A stretch of 56,637 nucleotides of DNA. It comes from a virus (lineage: Duplodnaviria > Caudoviricetes). The stretch is taken from IMG/VR virus record IMGVR_UViG_3300030376_006415, positions 1-56,637 of that record. One strand, given 5' to 3'. Positions 483-37,786 of the stretch are shown in pieces. Positions within the stretch are counted from its first letter, which is position 1, and every line of letters starts with the position of its first letter. A model generated the notes under the pieces. It was not told the DNA's origin. It ran no database searches and was given only the letters and a program-made list of their open reading frames with translations. Position numbers and translations under genes: made by a program.

Positions 483-735
483 TTATCATCATGTAGTATA
501 TATGTCTGTTAAGGATAAAAGTGGTAAGTTGGATGATTTTCCACTAAGACCATTTTTATATGAAGCAGAGGCGCAAGTTTATATTACTGGATATGTGGAT
601 GCTATAGTCAACCATACCAGTGAAGCTGATGAAGCTAAAGTAAGAGGCCAGTTTTCAATTCGAAATGTAGCTGGTGACATTGTTAACAATAATGAGGGTG
701 ATTCCTCAACAAATAAGGAGACAGAAAATGTCTAG
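469..735 (+). CDS. Hypothetical protein
   Basis: ORF overlapping both neighbours. Confidence 0.65.
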   Translation: MALNDYHHVVYMSVKDKSGKLDDFPLRPFLYEAEAQVYITGYVDAIVNHTSEADEAKVRGQFSIRNVAGDIVNNNEGDSSTNKETENV

Positions 736-1111
736 AACGATCAAAGTACTATCAGGTGGTGGATTCGTAACACAAGAAACACGATCTGAAACTATGTGTG
801 AACTGCGTGAAGAAATGGGTATATCATCCAATGCTTCAGCTGCAGTTGGTGGTGTGAATGTAAATAATTCATATCAATTACAAGAAGGGGATATCATTGC
901 ATTTGTAAACAATGATAAAACTGGTGGAACAGAACTAACTGTTGATATCAGCCTTGACAAAGAAGAGTTGTCAGTTCTATATACAGTATTGAATAGCTAT
1001 GTTAAAGAAAACATAGGATCAAATCATACTGGAGTAGAATTTGAAGATGCTCTTTGTACTAAGCTTGAAAATATACTTAGTGTATACAGGCTACAGGAAT
1101 CAATAGTATAA
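728..1111 (+). CDS. Ubiquitin-like (ThiS/MoaD-type beta-grasp) precursor: 67-aa Ubl ending in GG plus a 60-aa C-terminal extension
   Basis: AAGGAG RBS, ATG 728; ends ..YQLQEGDIIAFVNNDKTGG (L.EGD.I.F...GG signature); GG codons at 923-928. Confidence 0.8.
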   Translation: MSRTIKVLSGGGFVTQETRSETMCELREEMGISSNASAAVGGVNVNNSYQLQEGDIIAFVNNDKTGGTELTVDISLDKEELSVLYTVLNSYVKENIGSNHTGVEFEDALCTKLENILSVYRLQESIV

Positions 1112-1162
1112 TTGGTTGCCTCATCCTGAGCATGATATAAAAAGGCTCAAAATTTATATTTA

Positions 1163-1451
1163 ACCATAGCTTCTAAGATATAGCGAGCCAAATCTACTGA
1201 TAGTGTAGAATAGCATAGCTGCCTGATCTTAGACTTGAACATAACAGGTGAGATGCGAACGAACAAAGTTCATGAGGCATACTGTATAATTTGTTGCTAT
1301 GGTATTCTTACCGCACTCTGGCATAAAGCTGGGAATCAACCTTAAGTAACCCTTCTTAAGCTCAGCTCCAGAGTGCATTCCTATTCCCCTACTAGTTAAT
1401 ATCAAGTGATTTTTGCTATCTGTTGACCACGAATTGACAGAGAGTAGGGGA
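1163..1451 (+). ncRNA. Putative structured RNA cluster (three consecutive stem-closed modules)
   Basis: ACCATAGC/GCTATGGT (1163-1303), GCACTCTGG/CCAGAGTGC (1313-1376), TCCCCTACT/AGTAGGGGA (1385-1451), each with inner helices; ORF-free gap. Confidence 0.5.
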
Positions 1452-1479
1452 TTAAATTCAATAAAAACAAGGAGTTGCA

Positions 1480-1701
1480 GTGATATCTAAAATATATGAA
1501 AGCAATCAAATACTATTTAAATCAGGAACTCGTAAAGGTAAAACTAAATATCATATCGCTCTTGCTATACAAAAGAGAAAGATGAAACAGTTCCAGGATA
1601 AAGAATTTATTGTATTTCTTGAAAAGAAAGTCAAGGAATATGATAATAGATGGAAGAAGAAACGAAAGAACCAAAAGAAGAAAAAGAAAGGGAAAAAGTA
1701 A
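1480..1701 (+). CDS. Small Lys-rich basic protein
   Basis: AAGGAG RBS, GTG start, poly-K tail. Confidence 0.6.
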   Translation: MISKIYESNQILFKSGTRKGKTKYHIALAIQKRKMKQFQDKEFIVFLEKKVKEYDNRWKKKRKNQKKKKKGKK

Positions 1702-2040
1702 ATGTATTATAATACTAATGATGAAGAAGGTCAGGACTTAAGGGATTCATGGACTCAAACGGCAAATCAAAATGATTTAATACTACAATTCTTTATAGAT
1801 AATCCTGATCAATTATTTACACCAGATGAAATACATCATATGTGTGAAGTATGTGATAGAGATTGGCCAATAACTAGTATTCGTAGAGCGATATCTACTT
1901 TAACTAAAGCTGGTAACTTAACTAAAACAGATGAGTTACGGGAAGGTAAGTATGGGAAGAAAACACACGCATGGCAATATGCTGCGCAAATACGTAGAGA
2001 TATTAATGACACAGATATTCCAGGAGAAAGGGATTACTGA
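1702..2040 (+). CDS. Winged-helix DNA-binding protein
   Basis: ILQFF..FTPDEIH..ITSIRRAISTLTKAGNL followed by a beta-wing. Confidence 0.65.
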   Translation: MYYNTNDEEGQDLRDSWTQTANQNDLILQFFIDNPDQLFTPDEIHHMCEVCDRDWPITSIRRAISTLTKAGNLTKTDELREGKYGKKTHAWQYAAQIRRDINDTDIPGERDY

Positions 2041-2215
2041 TTTTGAATGGAAAGAATGTCTTGGTTCTAATCAGCTATATTTTAGAATAGGGTATTATGA
2101 TAAATTCTTATTGGATAATGGACTAGAGGATATATTTGAAGAGTTTGAAGATTTTGATCCAGACTGTGGAGCGATATTTTCATATTATTTAAGGGAGACA
2201 AATAAAAATGCATAA
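1931..2215 (+). CDS. Hypothetical protein (start probably downstream, near MTQIF)
   Basis: ORF filling the gap between neighbours. Confidence 0.5.
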   Translation: MSYGKVSMGRKHTHGNMLRKYVEILMTQIFQEKGITDFEWKECLGSNQLYFRIGYYDKFLLDNGLEDIFEEFEDFDPDCGAIFSYYLRETNKNA

Positions 2216-2402
2216 AAATGGACAGTCAGACCCACTAAAGAGTTGTGATTCATGCAGGGCAGTATGGCATAAATCAACAGTTTTAGTTGAGATGTATAAA
2301 AAAGGAGGATATAGTTATTATTATGACTTTCCTCATTATGGATTAGAAAAGAAAGAATGCCCAAATTGTGAGGAGTCAAAGTATGAGTTCAGCAACGCTT
2401 AA
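2208..2402 (+). CDS. Zinc-ribbon protein
   Basis: CDSC...CPNC. Confidence 0.65.
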   Translation: MHKNGQSDPLKSCDSCRAVWHKSTVLVEMYKKGGYSYYYDFPHYGLEKKECPNCEESKYEFSNA

Positions 2403-3705
2403 CGCAACAAACAACTTCCTTAGCGGAATGGATAATATCGATGATATTATAGAAAGAATAGCATTAGGACCACAGGAAGAAGTCTTGAATTTAATACAAA
2501 ATTTAAATTTCAGATGGAATACTGACTTTAGATGTACACCTACATTTAGATGGCAGCCTGGATTCTATAAGAAGTTAACAGAAGAGGCAGGTAAGATATC
2601 CAATGTTAATAGACAGAAGAATAAAGTATCTACATATAGGAATCAAATCAGCAATGCCAGATGGGCTATAGACCAATTCTTAACTAAGGTAGATGAGATA
2701 GATCAAAAGTTATACTTCTTGAGGAATGGCGGAATAGTATTTCAAGACAATACAGATGAAGTCAACCGTGTACTTAATGAGTATAAAGATAATATAGAGT
2801 CTACTATGTCAAGTGCAATGCAGCTATATCCACATATGAATATATCTGTATATCATGGCTTACATGTAAACGGTAGAGTACATAGAGCTCGATCTAGTAC
2901 AAATCATGCAGTTTCATTTCATGTTTATATTGAAGGAGTAAATACTAATATAAATATAGGTGGAGAGACTGTTGAAGTACCAATGGGTGATTTAGATGTA
3001 ATCATTTCTGTAGATCTAGTGAAGAACATTATGAATAGGATTAGAGGCACTCGTAGTATATCAGAAGGACATTCTGGTGGTGGTCATACTAATCCTTGGA
3101 ATGGTGCTATATTTCATCCACAAGAACCTGAAACATTATTTCCATATATATCTCAAGAACAGTGGAATAGAGACCAGCTTGAAGTTACATTTGCTGAAGG
3201 TCAAAATACAGGTTCTAGATTTAGTAATGTATGCTTTGGTAGCTTTGATACAGACATAAGACAAGCTACTTGGCAAGGTGATATATTAGCCTTGTTTACA
3301 TATCTAAATGGTTGGACAAAGAACTTCAATGTTGGAAGTACAGGTCCACTAAATAGCTATACTAAAATGTTTCATGGTATATGGCCTGAGATGCAGACAG
3401 AAGTATGGGAGTCAGCTGGCAATATGACTAATACACATAGAATGACTGATTGTAGGTATGCAAATGTATTAAATCAAGAGCAACCAGATATGGAAACATC
3501 TTATTGCGAAAGATATAATTGCGTTCTTCGCAACAGCTGTCCTTCGTATAGAGATTTATATCTACCTACAGAAGAAATAGATGATGGTGGTGAACTAGCT
3601 GATCAAGATGGTGAAACTCCATTTGGGCCAGAGTTAAATAGGTTAACAGAAGCTGAGATATTAGAAATGTATCAAGGCGTAAATACAGTAGACATAAGGA
3701 GATAA
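2383..3705 (+). CDS. Putative prokaryotic E2-like (UBC-fold) protein with N-terminal helical region and C-terminal Cys cluster
   Basis: GAGGAG then ATG 2383; LFPYIS...SNVCFG resembles the E2 HP.h...G.hCLG motif; lies directly upstream of JAB and ThiF genes. Confidence 0.55.
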   Translation: MSSATLNATNNFLSGMDNIDDIIERIALGPQEEVLNLIQNLNFRWNTDFRCTPTFRWQPGFYKKLTEEAGKISNVNRQKNKVSTYRNQISNARWAIDQFLTKVDEIDQKLYFLRNGGIVFQDNTDEVNRVLNEYKDNIESTMSSAMQLYPHMNISVYHGLHVNGRVHRARSSTNHAVSFHVYIEGVNTNINIGGETVEVPMGDLDVIISVDLVKNIMNRIRGTRSISEGHSGGGHTNPWNGAIFHPQEPETLFPYISQEQWNRDQLEVTFAEGQNTGSRFSNVCFGSFDTDIRQATWQGDILALFTYLNGWTKNFNVGSTGPLNSYTKMFHGIWPEMQTEVWESAGNMTNTHRMTDCRYANVLNQEQPDMETSYCERYNCVLRNSCPSYRDLYLPTEEIDDGGELADQDGETPFGPELNRLTEAEILEMYQGVNTVDIRR

Positions 3706-3706
3706 G

Positions 3707-4642
3707 ATGAATCAAGACTTTTATATAAGTGAGAAAGACTGGAACAAAATCCAGAATTATGCTCAAGCAGCTTATGATGATAGTAAATCTGAGATAGGTG
3801 GTATGTTAGTAGCTATTGAAGATGAGGATGGTGACTGGGAATTAAAAGATCCAGTTATCTTAAAGCAACAAATAAGTGCAGGTAATTGTGTGTTAGATAA
3901 AGATGATCTAGCGCTATATTATACTAAAGTGGGAACTAAACTCAAAAAGAAAAACTTTCGCTTTGTATGGTGGCATAGTCATCACACAATGAAGGCTTTT
4001 TGGTCGGGTACAGACTTAACTGCTATTAAAGAATATTCAGATGGTGACTTTAGCTTTGCTTTAGTTGTAAATCTTGATGAAGAATATAAGTTAAGAGTGT
4101 CTGTATGGAAGCCATTTGAGGTACATGAAGATGTAGATCTTAGCATTATAACTAAGGAAAAGAAAGTTCCTCAAAGAATACAAGATGAGGTTGCTGATAA
4201 ATGTTCTCGTATTATCCCTCAATATACTACCTATAATAAAGGGAAATATACTGCGGGAAAGTCGAGTCAGATGACTCTAATAGATACCAAGGATACCAAA
4301 GTTGGTGGTCCAAAGTATAGCCAAGAGTTATCTGGTGATTCTCCTGATTACATCTATGCTTATAATATGGTAGATGAGATGAATAAAAAATACTGTGATG
4401 GTAGGTTGACATATGAGGGATGGATAACTATGGCTAAAGATATTAACCACTTACTAAAGAGTACTTATAATAGTATTTATAGAATAGAGTTAGTAACAGA
4501 GCCTGTATTAGAATCTCAAGTTATGTTAGCAACACCTCATGAGTATATAGCAATTGACCTTACAGATGAAGCACAAGTTGAAGCTGAATGGGATGATTGG
4601 ATAGACTATAAATCTTATAACGCATCATATGGAGTAGACTAA
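3707..4642 (+). CDS. JAB/MPN+ (JAMM) metalloisopeptidase
   Basis: EIGG and WWHSHHTMKAFWSGTD (E..HxH..S..D). Confidence 0.9.
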   Translation: MNQDFYISEKDWNKIQNYAQAAYDDSKSEIGGMLVAIEDEDGDWELKDPVILKQQISAGNCVLDKDDLALYYTKVGTKLKKKNFRFVWWHSHHTMKAFWSGTDLTAIKEYSDGDFSFALVVNLDEEYKLRVSVWKPFEVHEDVDLSIITKEKKVPQRIQDEVADKCSRIIPQYTTYNKGKYTAGKSSQMTLIDTKDTKVGGPKYSQELSGDSPDYIYAYNMVDEMNKKYCDGRLTYEGWITMAKDINHLLKSTYNSIYRIELVTEPVLESQVMLATPHEYIAIDLTDEAQVEAEWDDWIDYKSYNASYGVD

Positions 4643-5301
4643 TGATAAATACAAGATCATCAGAGTTAGTGAATAACTTAGAAGATTTTACTTTTCACAT
4701 ATTGGGTTGCGGGGCTATAGGTAGCTCTGCAGCCTTACAAATAGCTAGAATGGGCGCTGATCAATTCTGTCTATATGATATGGATAAAGTAGAAGAAGTA
4801 AATATAGGTGTATCTCAATATACCTTTAACGATGTAGACAAACCTAAAGTAGAAGCATTGCATAATCATCTAATAGAATTAGGTGTTTTCAAAGTGAATA
4901 CATACAATGAGAGATTCTCAGAGTTTTATCCACAGGGAGAGAATGACATTGCTATACTTGGGTTTGATTCTATGTCGTCAAGATTACAAGCAGTAGAGGC
5001 ATTGTTTGGTATACCAGGAGTAAAGCCATTATACATAATTGATGGCCGTATGGGAGCTGAACACTATCAACAATATGTGTTTGATAAACCTACTGTAAGT
5101 AAATACAAAAAGACCTGGTATTCAGATGAGAGTGGTAGCCCAGAGCCTTGCAATGCAAAGGCAACAAGTTATTGTTCTAATCTATCAGGTAGTATGATAG
5201 CAAATACGGTAAGGAAACTCGTTACAGGACAACCATTTAACAGGTCATTTTCGTTTAATTTCCCGACAATGTTATTGGAAAAAACAGTCATGGTGTCGTA
5301 A
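4642..5301 (+). CDS. ThiF/MoeB/E1-family adenylyltransferase
   Basis: GCGAIGS, DMDKVEEVN..Q, K, GFDS, IDGR; candidate catalytic Cys in PEPCNAK. Confidence 0.92.
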   Translation: MINTRSSELVNNLEDFTFHILGCGAIGSSAALQIARMGADQFCLYDMDKVEEVNIGVSQYTFNDVDKPKVEALHNHLIELGVFKVNTYNERFSEFYPQGENDIAILGFDSMSSRLQAVEALFGIPGVKPLYIIDGRMGAEHYQQYVFDKPTVSKYKKTWYSDESGSPEPCNAKATSYCSNLSGSMIANTVRKLVTGQPFNRSFSFNFPTMLLEKTVMVS

Positions 5302-5343
5302 ATTACATACGCATTTCGAAACGCAAATCCTTATTTGTAATTA

Positions 5344-5371
5344 AGAGGGGTGGTATATCTGCCCCTTTTTT
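5344..5371 (+). terminator. Intrinsic terminator after the E1 gene
   Basis: GGGGTGG-TATAT-CTGCCCC followed by a T tract. Confidence 0.65.
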
Positions 5372-36420: not shown

Positions 36421-36668
36421 TATACTTCATCCTCTGTCCACTCGCTAGTTGCAAGAGTTGTTAATATCTCATTATGTGAAAATGATGTTATACCCTCAAA
36501 TCCTTCAGGAGTATCACCATCCCACTTTAAAATCGCTTTTGTACCATCTACAGACTTTCTAAGTGTATTAACACTTGTCTGAATGGCTTTTGTTACTAAA
36601 TCTTCTAATTGCTCATCTGTATAATCAGCAAGGGTTATTATTGCCCATTTTCTACTTGAATAACTCAA
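36420..36668 (-). CDS. Hypothetical virion-associated protein
   Basis: ORF in the tail block. Confidence 0.6.
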   Translation of the reverse strand: MSYSSRKWAIITLADYTDEQLEDLVTKAIQTSVNTLRKSVDGTKAILKWDGDTPEGFEGITSFSHNEILTTLATSEWTEDEV

Positions 36669-37786
36669 GGTGTGTCCTCCTCTATGTCTCCTGATACCAT
36701 ATTAGTCATTAAACCTGCATTGCCTTGAACTTCTTGCAATTTTATATCTGATATTGTAAGTGTTCCTGATGTACCCTGCCACCTAAATCCAAAATCATCT
36801 GTAGTAGCGATTCCATAATGAGTATGAGTACCAACAGAAGTATCTAATATAGTACCTGCATTAAACATATTTACCCCAACCCACTTTAATTGGACACCAT
36901 TAGGGTTACTTCCAATAGTCCACTCAGCCTTATATATTTTCCCTATAGTTACCCCTGAAATATTTTGTGCAAGTAAGTTAGTGTATGAACCTGATGTAAA
37001 TGACCAAGAATTAGTACCTGTATCTGACCATCCTGCTCCTAAGCTAAAGTCATCCTCAGCAACTAAATTGCTTCCCAATGTAGCATTTGTTTGGTCTGCA
37101 ATTAATGGGTACTCATCTAAAGTTCCATCTCCCATTCTCCAATAGCCTTGCAAGTTAGAAGAATTATCATAATCGCCTGAATCAGAACTAAGTGATATAG
37201 GTGTACCACTATTGTAAATAGAAGTTATAGCATCTGCATCTAAGGCAGTATTCCAAATAGCAACCTCATCCATATTGCCATTGAAATAATAGACACCATT
37301 TCCTCTTCTCCCAAGCTCAAGATTTACTGTATCATTGTCAATAGTAGTGACGTTATGGTCACCTGATTCAGCTGATAATTCGCCATTAACATAGATAGCA
37401 GACTTTTCGGTTGAAGTGTTGAAGATAGCTACAATATGATTCCAATTTCCATCACATACATTATGACCTGTACTTTTTACCTGCTTGCCACTACCACTAT
37501 TATAAAATGTGAACCAAGCCTTGCCTGTGGTTTTCTCTGTAGCAAGCCAAAAGTTTCTATTAGTGTTGTCATCTTTAGCTACTAAATATTGAATAGCACT
37601 TGTATCTGAAGATTTCATCCACAAACTTATAGAAATTGCTCCTGTTATTTGGGCGGATGAATCATTTCCACAATACAGATAATCATTAGTACCATCAAAG
37701 TTTAGACTTTTATTATTACTAAATAATGAACGAGGTTTCCTCTTTATGGCTTTTTTACTAATCGTTGTACCGAGACCTAATCTCAT
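36665..37786 (-). CDS. LamG/concanavalin-A-like lectin domain virion protein
   Basis: SLNFDGTNDY, ISLWMK, WNHIV, YVNG, FNGNMDEVAIWN. Confidence 0.85.
   Translation of the reverse strand: MRLGLGTTISKKAIKRKPRSLFSNNKSLNFDGTNDYLYCGNDSSAQITGAISISLWMKSSDTSAIQYLVAKDDNTNRNFWLATEKTTGKAWFTFYNSGSGKQVKSTGHNVCDGNWNHIVAIFNTSTEKSAIYVNGELSAESGDHNVTTIDNDTVNLELGRRGNGVYYFNGNMDEVAIWNTALDADAITSIYNSGTPISLSSDSGDYDNSSNLQGYWRMGDGTLDEYPLIADQTNATLGSNLVAEDDFSLGAGWSDTGTNSWSFTSGSYTNLLAQNISGVTIGKIYKAEWTIGSNPNGVQLKWVGVNMFNAGTILDTSVGTHTHYGIATTDDFGFRWQGTSGTLTISDIKLQEVQGNAGLMTNMVSGDIEEDTP

What the first reader, a model, noticed from the sequence alone, without database searches (positions are those of the whole stretch)
728..5301. 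Phage-encoded, apparently complete ubiquitin-like conjugation system (Ubl + E2-like + JAB + E1)
Seen: within ~4.6 kb of the early arm are a beta-grasp-like Ubl with GG (728-928), a protein with an E2-like NVCFG Cys (3232-3234), a JAMM protease (HSH at 3974-3982) and a ThiF/E1 (GCGAIG; Cys 5149-5151). The last three abut each other and end at a terminator. Known: this gene set typifies bacterial Ubl operons (Prok-E2/JAB/E1 neighbourhoods, PRTRC cassettes, Bil antiphage systems, CBASS Cap2/Cap3), usually on host chromosomes or plasmids. Inference: a lytic phage carries its own protein-tagging machinery early in infection, to modify host proteins or to counter host Ubl-based defence. I saw no sulfur-insertion enzyme, which favours conjugation over a ThiS-type sulfur relay.
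Basis: partly seen in the sequence, partly recalled or inferred. Interest (0 to 1): 0.92.

Follow-up and report, generated by a model that had tools for sequence, protein, structure and literature searches.

The report
Phage-run ubiquitin-like tagging cassette
An uncultured marine phage carries genes for a small ubiquitin-like tag, a trimming protease, an activating enzyme and an unknown cysteine protein, which together look like a virus-owned protein-tagging kit whose transfer enzyme would be of a new kind.

Summary
Three of the four parts are solid. The tag is a 67-aa ThiS-family beta-grasp with an invariant C-terminal K-x-G-G, followed by unconserved tails of 1-60 aa. The protease has a complete JAMM motif, invariant in 31 of 31 relatives. 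The E1 is a 219-aa single-domain ThiF enzyme with two invariant cysteines.

The fourth part, the 440-aa "E2-like" protein, is not a recognisable E2. It matches no Pfam E2 family and no solved structure by sequence or by fold. It founds a large virus-only family (411 clusters) with one invariant Cys-x-Gly and a four-Cys cluster.

The four genes co-occur in 25 of 35 related loci. Nine others are cut by contig ends, and one lacks JAB and E1 in the 1.8 kb that follows. In more distant relatives they form one contiguous operon. All four are under purifying selection. crAss-like and Flavobacterium FpV4 phages carry the same architecture, with a different cysteine protein in the second position.

Best reading (0.5): a phage-run Ubl conjugation pathway with a non-UBC transferase. 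The main rival is a ThiS-type sulfur relay.

Seven literature searches found no description of such a cassette. This scan has found the same kind of cassette before on other DNA.

The parts
728..1111 (+). Ubl precursor gene. The mature ThiS-family beta-grasp is residues 1-67 (728-928), ending K64-T-G66-G67. A 60-aa unconserved tail follows (929-1108).
   Evidence: The RBS AAGGAG lies 7-8 nt upstream. There are 27 homologues. Conservation stops exactly after GG, and GG is invariant in 23 of 23. Pfam ThiS is hit by 16 of 23 members. The long tail is shared only with L003.
2208..2402 (+). 64-aa CxxC...CxxC zinc-ribbon protein whose end overlaps the start of the 440-aa gene. A possible accessory, not a core part.
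   Evidence: The sequence is. Homologues were found in 9 of 34 viral loci (L003-L007, L009-L012) and in none of L014-L036.
2383..3705 (+). 440-aa protein 'X' of a new virus-only family. It has an invariant Cys284-x-Gly286, near-invariant P254, W311, P322, N324 and G332, and a four-Cys cluster (C357, C375, C380, C386). It is the proposed non-UBC Ubl transferase or specificity factor.
   Evidence: Conservation. Cys is present in 33 of 35 loci, and the other two are cut before that position. No family or fold match was found.
3707..4642 (+). JAB/JAMM metalloprotease of 311 aa. The catalytic domain is about residues 1-135. The C-terminal half is variable and of unknown function.
   Evidence: PADLOC JAB scores 4.8e-6. 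Pfam Prok-JAB scores 2.3e-4, below its cut-off. E29, H90, H92, S100 and D103 are invariant in 31 of 31.
4642..5301 (+). Minimal single-domain E1 (ThiF-family adenylyltransferase) of 219 aa. It carries GCGAIG, D46, D109 and R114, plus the invariant Cys170 and Cys178.
   Evidence: Pfam ThiF scores 1.5e-15 over residues 9-197. The best solved relatives are UBA5, MccB, ThiF, MoeB, Cap2 and BubCD.
5343..5371 (+). Terminator-like hairpin with a U-run, closing the X-JAB-E1 unit.
   Evidence: Sequence and fold. It was not listed by the consensus scan.

Best explanation
This is a phage-encoded ubiquitin-like protein modification pathway, expressed with the replication genes.

**Shown from sequence**
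- A ThiS-family beta-grasp is made as a precursor with an invariant GG and a disposable tail.
- A JAMM protease with all its catalytic residues is present.
- A minimal E1 adenylation domain is present.
- A co-inherited 440-aa protein has a single invariant cysteine.

**Inferred order of events**
1. JAB cuts after Gly67.
2. The E1, probably a homodimer like UBA5, ThiF and BubCD, adenylates the free C-terminus. It probably takes the tag onto Cys170.
3. The tag passes to Cys284 of protein X. X replaces a UBC-type E2 and, through its fast-evolving middle part, chooses the target.
4. X transfers the tag to lysines of host or phage proteins.
5. JAB may also reverse the mark.

**Inferred purpose:** host take-over, counter-defence, or control of replication proteins.
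For: - **GG boundary.** GG is invariant in 23 of 23 Ubls, and conservation ends abruptly after it. The tails are 1-60 aa and unrelated to each other. A protease is therefore needed before activation.
- **Protease.** The JAMM residues are invariant in 31 of 31.
- **E1.** It is a true ThiF-family adenylation domain. Two cysteines are invariant in 24 of 24.
- **Protein X.** It has exactly one invariant cysteine in 60 diverse members and no conserved His or Asp partner. This fits a thioester carrier better than a hydrolase.
- **Gene order.** Ubl-X-JAB-E1 is kept in 25 of 35 loci. In L014-L027, L030, L032 and L042 the Ubl gene sits 1-76 nt in front of X, forming one operon.
- **Rates of change.** In L009, L010 and L013, X is 26-32% identical to the window's copy, while E1 is 73-76% and the primase-helicase 78-80%. 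dN/dS is 0.10-0.42 for X and 0.03-0.09 for E1. This is the pattern expected of a partner-recognition component.
- **Same layout elsewhere.** crAss-like and FpV4 phages carry a Ubl-like precursor ending K-S-G-[AG], a roughly 370-444-aa protein with an invariant C-x-G, a JAB and a ThiF.
- **No sulfur enzymes or tRNA.** The scanned ORFs held no rhodanese, desulfurase, PP-loop enzyme, ThiG or MoaE, and no tRNA gene was found.
Against: - X shows no UBC fold and no E2 family signal. Its role as a thioester carrier rests only on one invariant Cys and on gene linkage.
- That Cys could be structural, or a fifth ligand of the Cys cluster.
- The Ubl's nearest family is ThiS, a sulfur carrier.
- As I recall, and from no call, JAB trimming of GG-plus-tail precursors also occurs in sulfur-carrier systems (CysO/Mec+, QbsE/QbsD).
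- Placing Cys170 in the crossover loop is my inference. Alignments to solved E1s stop at about residue 150.
- One locus (L035) has Ubl and X but no JAB or E1 in the 1.8 kb that follows.
- No target is known, and there are no expression or biochemical data.
Confidence: 0.5

Rival explanations
1. A sulfur-carrier relay. JAB exposes the GG and the E1 adenylates it. A host sulfur donor then makes a Ubl thiocarboxylate. Protein X, with its catalytic Cys and a four-Cys metal or Fe-S site, uses it to put sulfur into a nucleotide, DNA, RNA or a small molecule.
For: - 16 of 23 Ubls hit Pfam ThiS.
- The best NCBIfam hits of the E1 are ThiF models.
- The E1 has a single domain like ThiF and MoeB.
- X has a Cx17Cx4Cx5C cluster that is at least 97% conserved.
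- The cassette sits among DNA replication genes in three phage groups.
Against: - No sulfur donor or known acceptor enzyme was found among the ORFs scanned.
- X has no PP-loop or other nucleotide-binding family hit.
- X evolves much faster than the E1 and the Ubl, which is unusual for a biosynthetic enzyme.
- In crAss-like and FpV4 phages the second position is held by an unrelated family.
- The phage has no tRNA genes.
Confidence: 0.17
2. Ubl conjugation in which X is not a transferase. The E1 alone passes the tag on, and X is the main target, a scaffold or an adaptor that is itself tagged. This would resemble the CD-NTase in type II CBASS.
For: - X has no E2 features.
- Its size and its position before JAB and E1 recall the CD-NTase-Cap2-Cap3 gene order (recalled, from no call).
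- Minimal E1-like enzymes can transfer directly to nucleophiles. In the Bub reconstitution, BubA ended up on a lysine of BubB itself (PMC11601596, section 9).
Against: - The one invariant residue of X that could react is a Cys, not a Lys.
- No column of X with an invariant Lys was found in 60 members.
Confidence: 0.15
3. Interference with host ubiquitin-like immunity. The phage JAB strips host Bil- or CBASS-type conjugates, or the phage Ubl and E1 compete with the host machinery. Under this reading the cassette is an anti-defence device rather than a general modifier.
For: - The E1's N-terminal half matches PADLOC Cap2 models at 9e-13, and the JAB matches Cap3-type JAB models at 5e-6.
- In a Nitrospirota MAG, a related JAB-E1 pair flanks an ArdA antirestriction gene next to an integrase.
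- X and the C-terminal half of JAB evolve fast.
Against: - A deconjugase alone would need neither a Ubl nor an E1.
- The PADLOC matches cover only the generic Rossmann part, residues 10-83.
- No host is known.
Confidence: 0.1
4. Other E1-like chemistry on a peptide C-terminus, of the MccB or PaaA type, making a modified peptide or nucleotide-peptide product.
For: With the single sequence as query, MccB is the best solved match (E 1e-4), and PaaA is also listed.
Against: - The substrate candidate is a folded 67-aa beta-grasp with GG, not a short peptide.
- The matches cover only the generic N-terminal half.
Confidence: 0.05

Closest known systems
Bil systems (BilA Ubl, BilB E2, BilC JAB, BilD E1), a bacterial anti-phage defence. 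Definition read in PMC11601596, section 5.
   Same: The part list is a Ubl with a C-terminal Gly, a JAB peptidase, an E1 and a fourth protein in one co-oriented cluster. No E3 is present.
   Different: - This E1 is a 219-aa single adenylation domain, not IAD-AAD-CYS.
- The fourth protein has no UBC fold.
- The cassette is carried by a phage in its replication arm, not by a bacterial defence island.
Bub (6E) pathways: BubAB, BubCD, BubE. Read in PMC11601596, abstract and sections 5, 7 and 9.
   Same: - A minimal homodimer-type E1 resembling UBA5 and ThiF. BubCD is among the PDB sequence hits at 4e-4.
- JAB active-site residues at almost the same positions (BubCD E28, H91, H93, D104; here E29, H90, H92, D103).
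- The Ubl is made as a precursor that the JAB cuts.
   Different: - The genes here are separate, not fused.
- No DUF6527 hit was found on the four proteins.
- This E1 keeps invariant cysteines where BubCD has none, and the partner has an invariant Cys rather than a Ser/His pair. A thioester route is therefore expected, not an oxyester route.
ThiS-ThiF and MoaD-MoeB sulfur-carrier pairs
   Same: The tag belongs to the ThiS family by Pfam. The E1 is a single ThiF domain.
   Different: - GG is followed by a tail, and a JAB gene is linked.
- No ThiG, ThiH, MoaE or sulfur donor was found.
- All NCBIfam ThiF and MoeB scores fall far below the family cut-offs.
crAss001 gp79-gp78-gp77-gp76 and FpV4 gp53-gp52-gp51-gp50, annotated as hypothetical, metalloprotease and 'thiamine biosynthesis protein'
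   Same: - Same order and similar sizes.
- The E1 is 30% identical, E 2e-23.
- The JAB motif region matches at E 2e-4.
- The upstream protein has an N-terminal domain of about 90 aa ending K-S-G-[AG].
- The cassette sits next to primase and UDG.
   Different: - The 370-444-aa protein there belongs to another family (invariant Y-x-H-S-H ... C-x-G). No homology to X is detectable (hhalign probability 0.1-0.2).
- The likeness between the two Ubls is only suggestive (hhalign probability 12%).
Type II CBASS Cap2 (E2-E1) and Cap3 (JAB)
   Same: An E1-type adenylation domain plus a JAB. PADLOC Cap2 models are the best defence-library hits.
   Different: CBASS has no free Ubl and has an E2 fused to its E1. 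Here the match covers only residues 10-83.

Membership tests
JAMM/MPN+ metalloprotease | Motif E ... H-x-H-x7-S-x2-D | tested here: met
   E29, H90, H92, S100 and D103 are present and invariant in 31 of 31 relatives. PADLOC JAB scores 4.8e-6. Pfam Prok-JAB scores 21.4 bits, under its cut-off of 25.
E1 / ThiF adenylyltransferase superfamily | ThiF-type Rossmann adenylation domain with a GxGxxG loop and conserved Asp and Arg | tested here: met
   Pfam ThiF scores 57.5 bits against a cut-off of 28.1, over residues 9-197. GCGAIG, D46, D109 and R114 are invariant in 24 of 24.
E1 / ThiF adenylyltransferase superfamily | Catalytic Cys in the crossover loop (needed for a thioester E1) | tested here: inconclusive
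   C170 and C178 are invariant. Alignments to solved E1s end near residue 150, so the placement in the loop is inferred from recalled motifs.
ThiS/MoaD/ubiquitin beta-grasp | Beta-grasp domain ending in Gly-Gly | tested here: met
   Pfam ThiS is hit by 16 of 23 members, best E 1.1e-5. The window's own copy scores 0.13, below the cut-off. GG is present in 23 of 23. The AF2 model was too poor (pLDDT 54) to show the fold.
UBC / E2 superfamily (for the 440-aa protein) | UBC fold with the catalytic Cys after an HPN-type loop | tested here: not met
   - Foldseek against the PDB: 0 of 144 matches at E <= 0.001, and no E2 among the 49 rows listed.
- Pfam on 60 members: no UQ_con or Prok-E2 family at E <= 10.
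- Profile against PDB sequences: only coiled-coil noise.
- The (H/F)-P-Y ... C-x-G motif is a loose resemblance only.
- Caveat: the search used the whole-chain model, not isolated domains.
Bil (BilABCD) | [quoted passage not shown] | tested here: not met
   The E1 is 219 aa with one ThiF domain. No E2 was found. The definition is from PMC11601596, section 5.
Bub (6E) | Ubl-E2 or E2-E1 fusion, JAB-E1 fusion, DUF6527 protease; E1 without a Cys | tested here: not met
   There are four separate genes. No DUF6527 hit was found on them. The E1 has invariant Cys residues. The rest of the genome was not scanned for DUF6527.
PRTRC cassette | NCBIfam PRTRC_ThiF and PRTRC_A-E models above their cut-offs; a ParB partner | tested here: not met
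   PRTRC_ThiF scores 23.6 bits against a cut-off of 144.75. PRTRC_A scores 13.3 against 101.8. There are no hits for X or the Ubl.
ThiS-ThiF / MoaD-MoeB sulfur relay | Linked sulfur donor and acceptor enzymes (ThiG/ThiH, MoaE, rhodanese, desulfurase); thiocarboxylate formation | tested here: not met
   None was found among 44 window ORFs scanned against Pfam and/or PHROGs. Small ORFs were not all scanned. Thiocarboxylate formation cannot be tested with these tools.

The most novel reading that the evidence does not exclude
Protein X founds a virus-specific, non-UBC class of Ubl transferase, acting as E2 and E3 in one. Phages of Bacteroidota-type hosts, from abundant marine lineages to crAss-like gut phages, would then run their own ubiquitin-like tagging of host or replisome proteins. 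In this pathway the E1, Ubl and JAB are ancient and slow-evolving. The transferase slot has been filled more than once by unrelated cysteine proteins.
Probability: 0.33. Interest if true: 0.9.

Novelty: new variant of a known kind. Interest (0 to 1): 0.72.

Why it matters
- **A role reversal.** Ubiquitin-like conjugation in prokaryotes has so far been studied as bacterial anti-phage defence (Bil, Bub, CBASS Cap2/Cap3). Here the virus would be the user.
- **It is widespread.** The E1 has 1346 database relatives at E <= 1e-5, and X has 411 clusters.
- **Cultured models exist.** The same architecture occurs in crAss001 and FpV4. There the genes are still annotated as 'thiamine biosynthesis' and 'hypothetical', so the question can be tested directly.
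- **A possible new transferase.** If X carries a thioester, it is a new solution to the E2 step.

Tried and rejected
**Searches in the phage collection**
- Near-identity DNA search: no match.
- tblastn of X and of JAB: no match.

**Searches to classify X**
- ESM Atlas look-ups, whole protein and residues 225-395: no usable named hit.
- Foldseek against BFVD: only unnamed family members.

**Searches to classify the Ubl**
- Ubl profile against PDB sequences: 0 hits.
- The AF2 model of the Ubl had pLDDT 54, and its Foldseek search gave nothing at E <= 0.001. The beta-grasp assignment therefore rests on Pfam ThiS only.

**Links to crAss-like and FpV4 cassettes**
- hhalign of the X family against crAss001 gp78, FpV4 gp52 and their six-member alignment: probability 0.1-0.2. 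I dropped the idea that they are one family.
- The Ubl HMM against six crAss-like and FpV4 loci: nothing significant, best E 0.24.

**Complex prediction**
- E1 + Ubl(1-67) + X, with X as the partner: verdict 'no answer', score 0.10 against a mark of 0.32, controls not run. This counts neither for nor against binding.

**Other rejected ideas and limits**
- I considered that the 674 GTG start makes a 145-aa Ubl protein. I rejected it because the RBS sits before ATG 728 and homologues start there.
- I considered X as a papain-like protease. I rejected it because no His or Asp column is conserved in 60 members.
- Supplements of the Bil and Bub papers were not opened. Their operon tables might list phage-borne cases that I could not see.
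- Papers: I saw search listings. I read passages of PMC1779556 and reference-list passages only of PMC13139388. For PMC11601596 I read the abstract and sections 5, 7 and 9.

Full report
**What the window is.** The window is a complete 56,637-bp virus record. GC skew divides it into a + strand arm (about 54 kb through the ends to about 10.3 kb) and a long - strand arm. The - strand arm holds the terminase, portal and major head genes and several giant proteins. The + strand arm holds an Erf recombinase, a primase-helicase and small ORFs. No close cultured relative exists. The terminase is at most 26% identical to known phages, and the primase-helicase has one weak hit. No tRNA gene was found.

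**The observation.**
- The Ubl gene starts at ATG 728, behind AAGGAG.
- Protein X starts at ATG 2383, behind GAGGAG.
- X, JAB and E1 abut each other: stop 3705 and ATG 3707, then a 1-nt overlap at 4642.
- A hairpin plus U-run follows at 5343-5371. The consensus terminator scan missed it.

**The tag.**
- 27 homologues were found. They are 69-93% identical up to D-K-T-G-G and then lose all similarity.
- In a wider set of 23 sequences, including distant phages, K64, G66 and G67 are invariant. The tails are 1-60 aa long, mostly 1-3.
- 16 of the 23 hit Pfam ThiS, best E 1.1e-5. Two hit ThiS-like, two TGS and one Ub-Mut7C, which are all beta-grasp families as I recall.
- The 60-aa tail of this window is shared only with L003.
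- The AF2 model was poor, with pLDDT 54.

**The protease.** PADLOC JAB models match at 5e-6. The full JAMM motif is present and is invariant in 31 of 31 relatives. The C-terminal 160 aa are variable.

**The E1.**
- Pfam ThiF scores 1.5e-15 over nearly the whole 219 aa.
- Invariant columns include GCGAIG, D46, D109, R114, C170 and C178.
- The best solved relatives are UBA5, MccB, ThiF, TcdA, MoeB, Cap2 and BubCD. The alignments cover only the N-terminal half to two-thirds.
- All NCBIfam ThiF, MoeB and PRTRC scores are far below their cut-offs.
- There are 1346 relatives at E <= 1e-5. The best 120 are all at least 65% identical and mostly about 219-222 aa long, with a few shorter fragments.

**Protein X.**
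- It has no hit in Pfam, PHROGs, PADLOC or NCBIfam.
- A profile search of 1.84 billion representatives found 411 clusters at E <= 0.001.
- In 60 diverse members only G60, C284 and P322 are invariant. G29, P30, Q31, N42, T52, W57, P254, G286, W311, N324, G332 and four cysteines (357, 375, 380, 386) are at least 90% conserved.
- The variable parts are residues 141-240, 261-280 and 400-440.
- An AF2 model (pLDDT 75, pTM 0.64) matched nothing in the PDB at E <= 0.001. In BFVD it matched only unnamed viral family members.
- Pfam at E <= 10 on all 60 members gave no E2 family.
- The E2 label is therefore not supported. What stands is a lone invariant Cys-x-Gly at the start of a helix, after a (H/F)-P-Y loop, plus a probable metal site.

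**Linkage.**
- I examined 34 viral loci and one contig binned into a MAG, 35 in all. All four genes are present in order in 25 of them.
- Nine of the rest are cut by contig ends inside or beside the cassette.
- One locus (L035) has Ubl and X but no JAB or E1 in the following 1.8 kb.
- In the closer relatives, 1.3-3.2 kb separate Ubl from X. In most of the more distant ones the gap is 1-76 nt, so the four genes form one operon.
- The zinc-ribbon gene overlapping the start of X is found in 9 of the 34 viral loci only.

**Selection.**
- dN/dS against six relatives is 0.03-0.09 for E1, 0.03-0.18 for Ubl, 0.08-0.21 for JAB and 0.10-0.42 for X.
- In L009, L010 and L013, X is 26-32% identical while E1 is 73-76% and the primase-helicase 78-80%.
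- In L003 the block from p76 to E1 is 86-99% identical but the replication genes are only 75-84%. The cassette therefore recombines as a module.

**Wider kin.**
- The E1 finds 76 phage records: 29 Bacteroides crAss-like, 29 Flavobacterium, 12 uncultured and 6 others.
- In crAss001, four further crAss-like phages and FpV4, the order is primase, then a 210-310-aa protein, a 370-444-aa protein, JAB and ThiF (Pfam).
- The first of these proteins has a conserved N-terminal domain of about 90 aa ending K-S-G-[AG]. hhalign against the marine Ubls is only suggestive, at 12% probability.
- The 370-444-aa proteins form their own family with an invariant Y-x-H-S-H and C-x-G. They are not detectably related to X.
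- More distant JAB-E1 pairs occur in MAG contigs. One flanks an ArdA antirestriction gene beside an integrase.

**Interpretation.**
- The E1, the JAB, a GG-ended tag that must be trimmed, and a tightly linked protein with a single invariant cysteine fit a Ubl conjugation pathway best. X would stand in for the E2, and perhaps the E3.
- The fast-evolving middle of X and the slow E1 and Ubl fit a division into constant chemistry and variable targeting.
- The main rival is a ThiS-type sulfur relay with X as the acceptor enzyme. It is weakened by the absence of sulfur partners among the scanned ORFs, by the evolutionary rate of X, and by the replacement of X with another family in crAss-like and FpV4 phages. 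It is not excluded.
- Bil membership fails on the E1 architecture and on the missing UBC-type E2. Bub membership fails on the gene fusions and on BubE.
- The closest mechanistic parallel for the E1 and JAB is BubCD. The difference is that cysteines are kept here.

**Literature.** Seven searches found no paper describing a phage-run E1, JAB and Ubl cassette. 'crAss-like' with 'ThiF' returned no paper at all. Iyer et al. 2006 (PMC1779556, passages read) link phages only to the tail-assembly Ubl and JAB without an E1. This scan has noted the same kind of cassette on other DNA: look-alikes of this E1 in 22 windows and several followed-up reports.

**Verdict.** This is a new variant of a known kind. 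Interest 0.72.

Noticed in passing
window 1112-1479: A 368-nt stretch with no ORF lies between the Ubl gene and the next gene, in an otherwise packed arm. Another first-stage note (e1-6337048) reads it as structured RNA modules. I did not test it.
   Followed up: no
window 1480-1701 and 1702-2040: Between the Ubl gene and X lie a 73-aa ORF with a very Lys-rich tail and a 112-aa protein of phrog_9069 (E 1.7e-20, function unknown). The 112-aa protein is kept in closer relatives but evolves fast, with dN/dS of 0.19-0.98 across five relatives (0.45-0.98 in four of them).
   Followed up: partly
L003 versus window: Mosaic relationship. The block from p76 to E1 is 86-99% identical, but Erf, p174 and the primase-helicase just downstream are only 75-84%. 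In L008, JAB is 99% identical while the end of X is 82%. The recombination breakpoints therefore lie at or inside the cassette.
   Followed up: partly
L043 4076-9152 (Nitrospirota MAG contig): A distant JAB-E1 pair has an ArdA antirestriction gene (E 3e-34) between the two genes. A 530-aa unknown protein lies upstream and a tyrosine integrase downstream. It looks like an integrative element's establishment module.
   Followed up: partly
L044 2200-11169 (Anaerolineales MAG contig): The locus holds two JAB proteins, a 418-aa unknown protein, an E1 and two AAA ATPases, one fused to Kelch repeats. It is a larger E1/JAB system of unknown kind.
   Followed up: no
L035 8936-10756: In this one relative, X is followed by about 1 kb with no + strand ORF and then by small ORFs, instead of JAB and E1.
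   Followed up: partly
L001 1241-1918 (crAss001 gp79) and its counterparts in L037-L041: These proteins, annotated as hypothetical, have a conserved N-terminal domain of about 90 aa ending K-S-G-[AG], followed by a variable acidic and Lys-rich extension. They are likely Ubl precursors of the crAss-like and FpV4 cassette.
   Followed up: partly
window 36665-37786 (- strand): A 373-aa protein in the structural arm has a Laminin_G_3 / concanavalin-like lectin domain (E 4.6e-24). It may be a receptor-binding or decoration protein.
   Followed up: no
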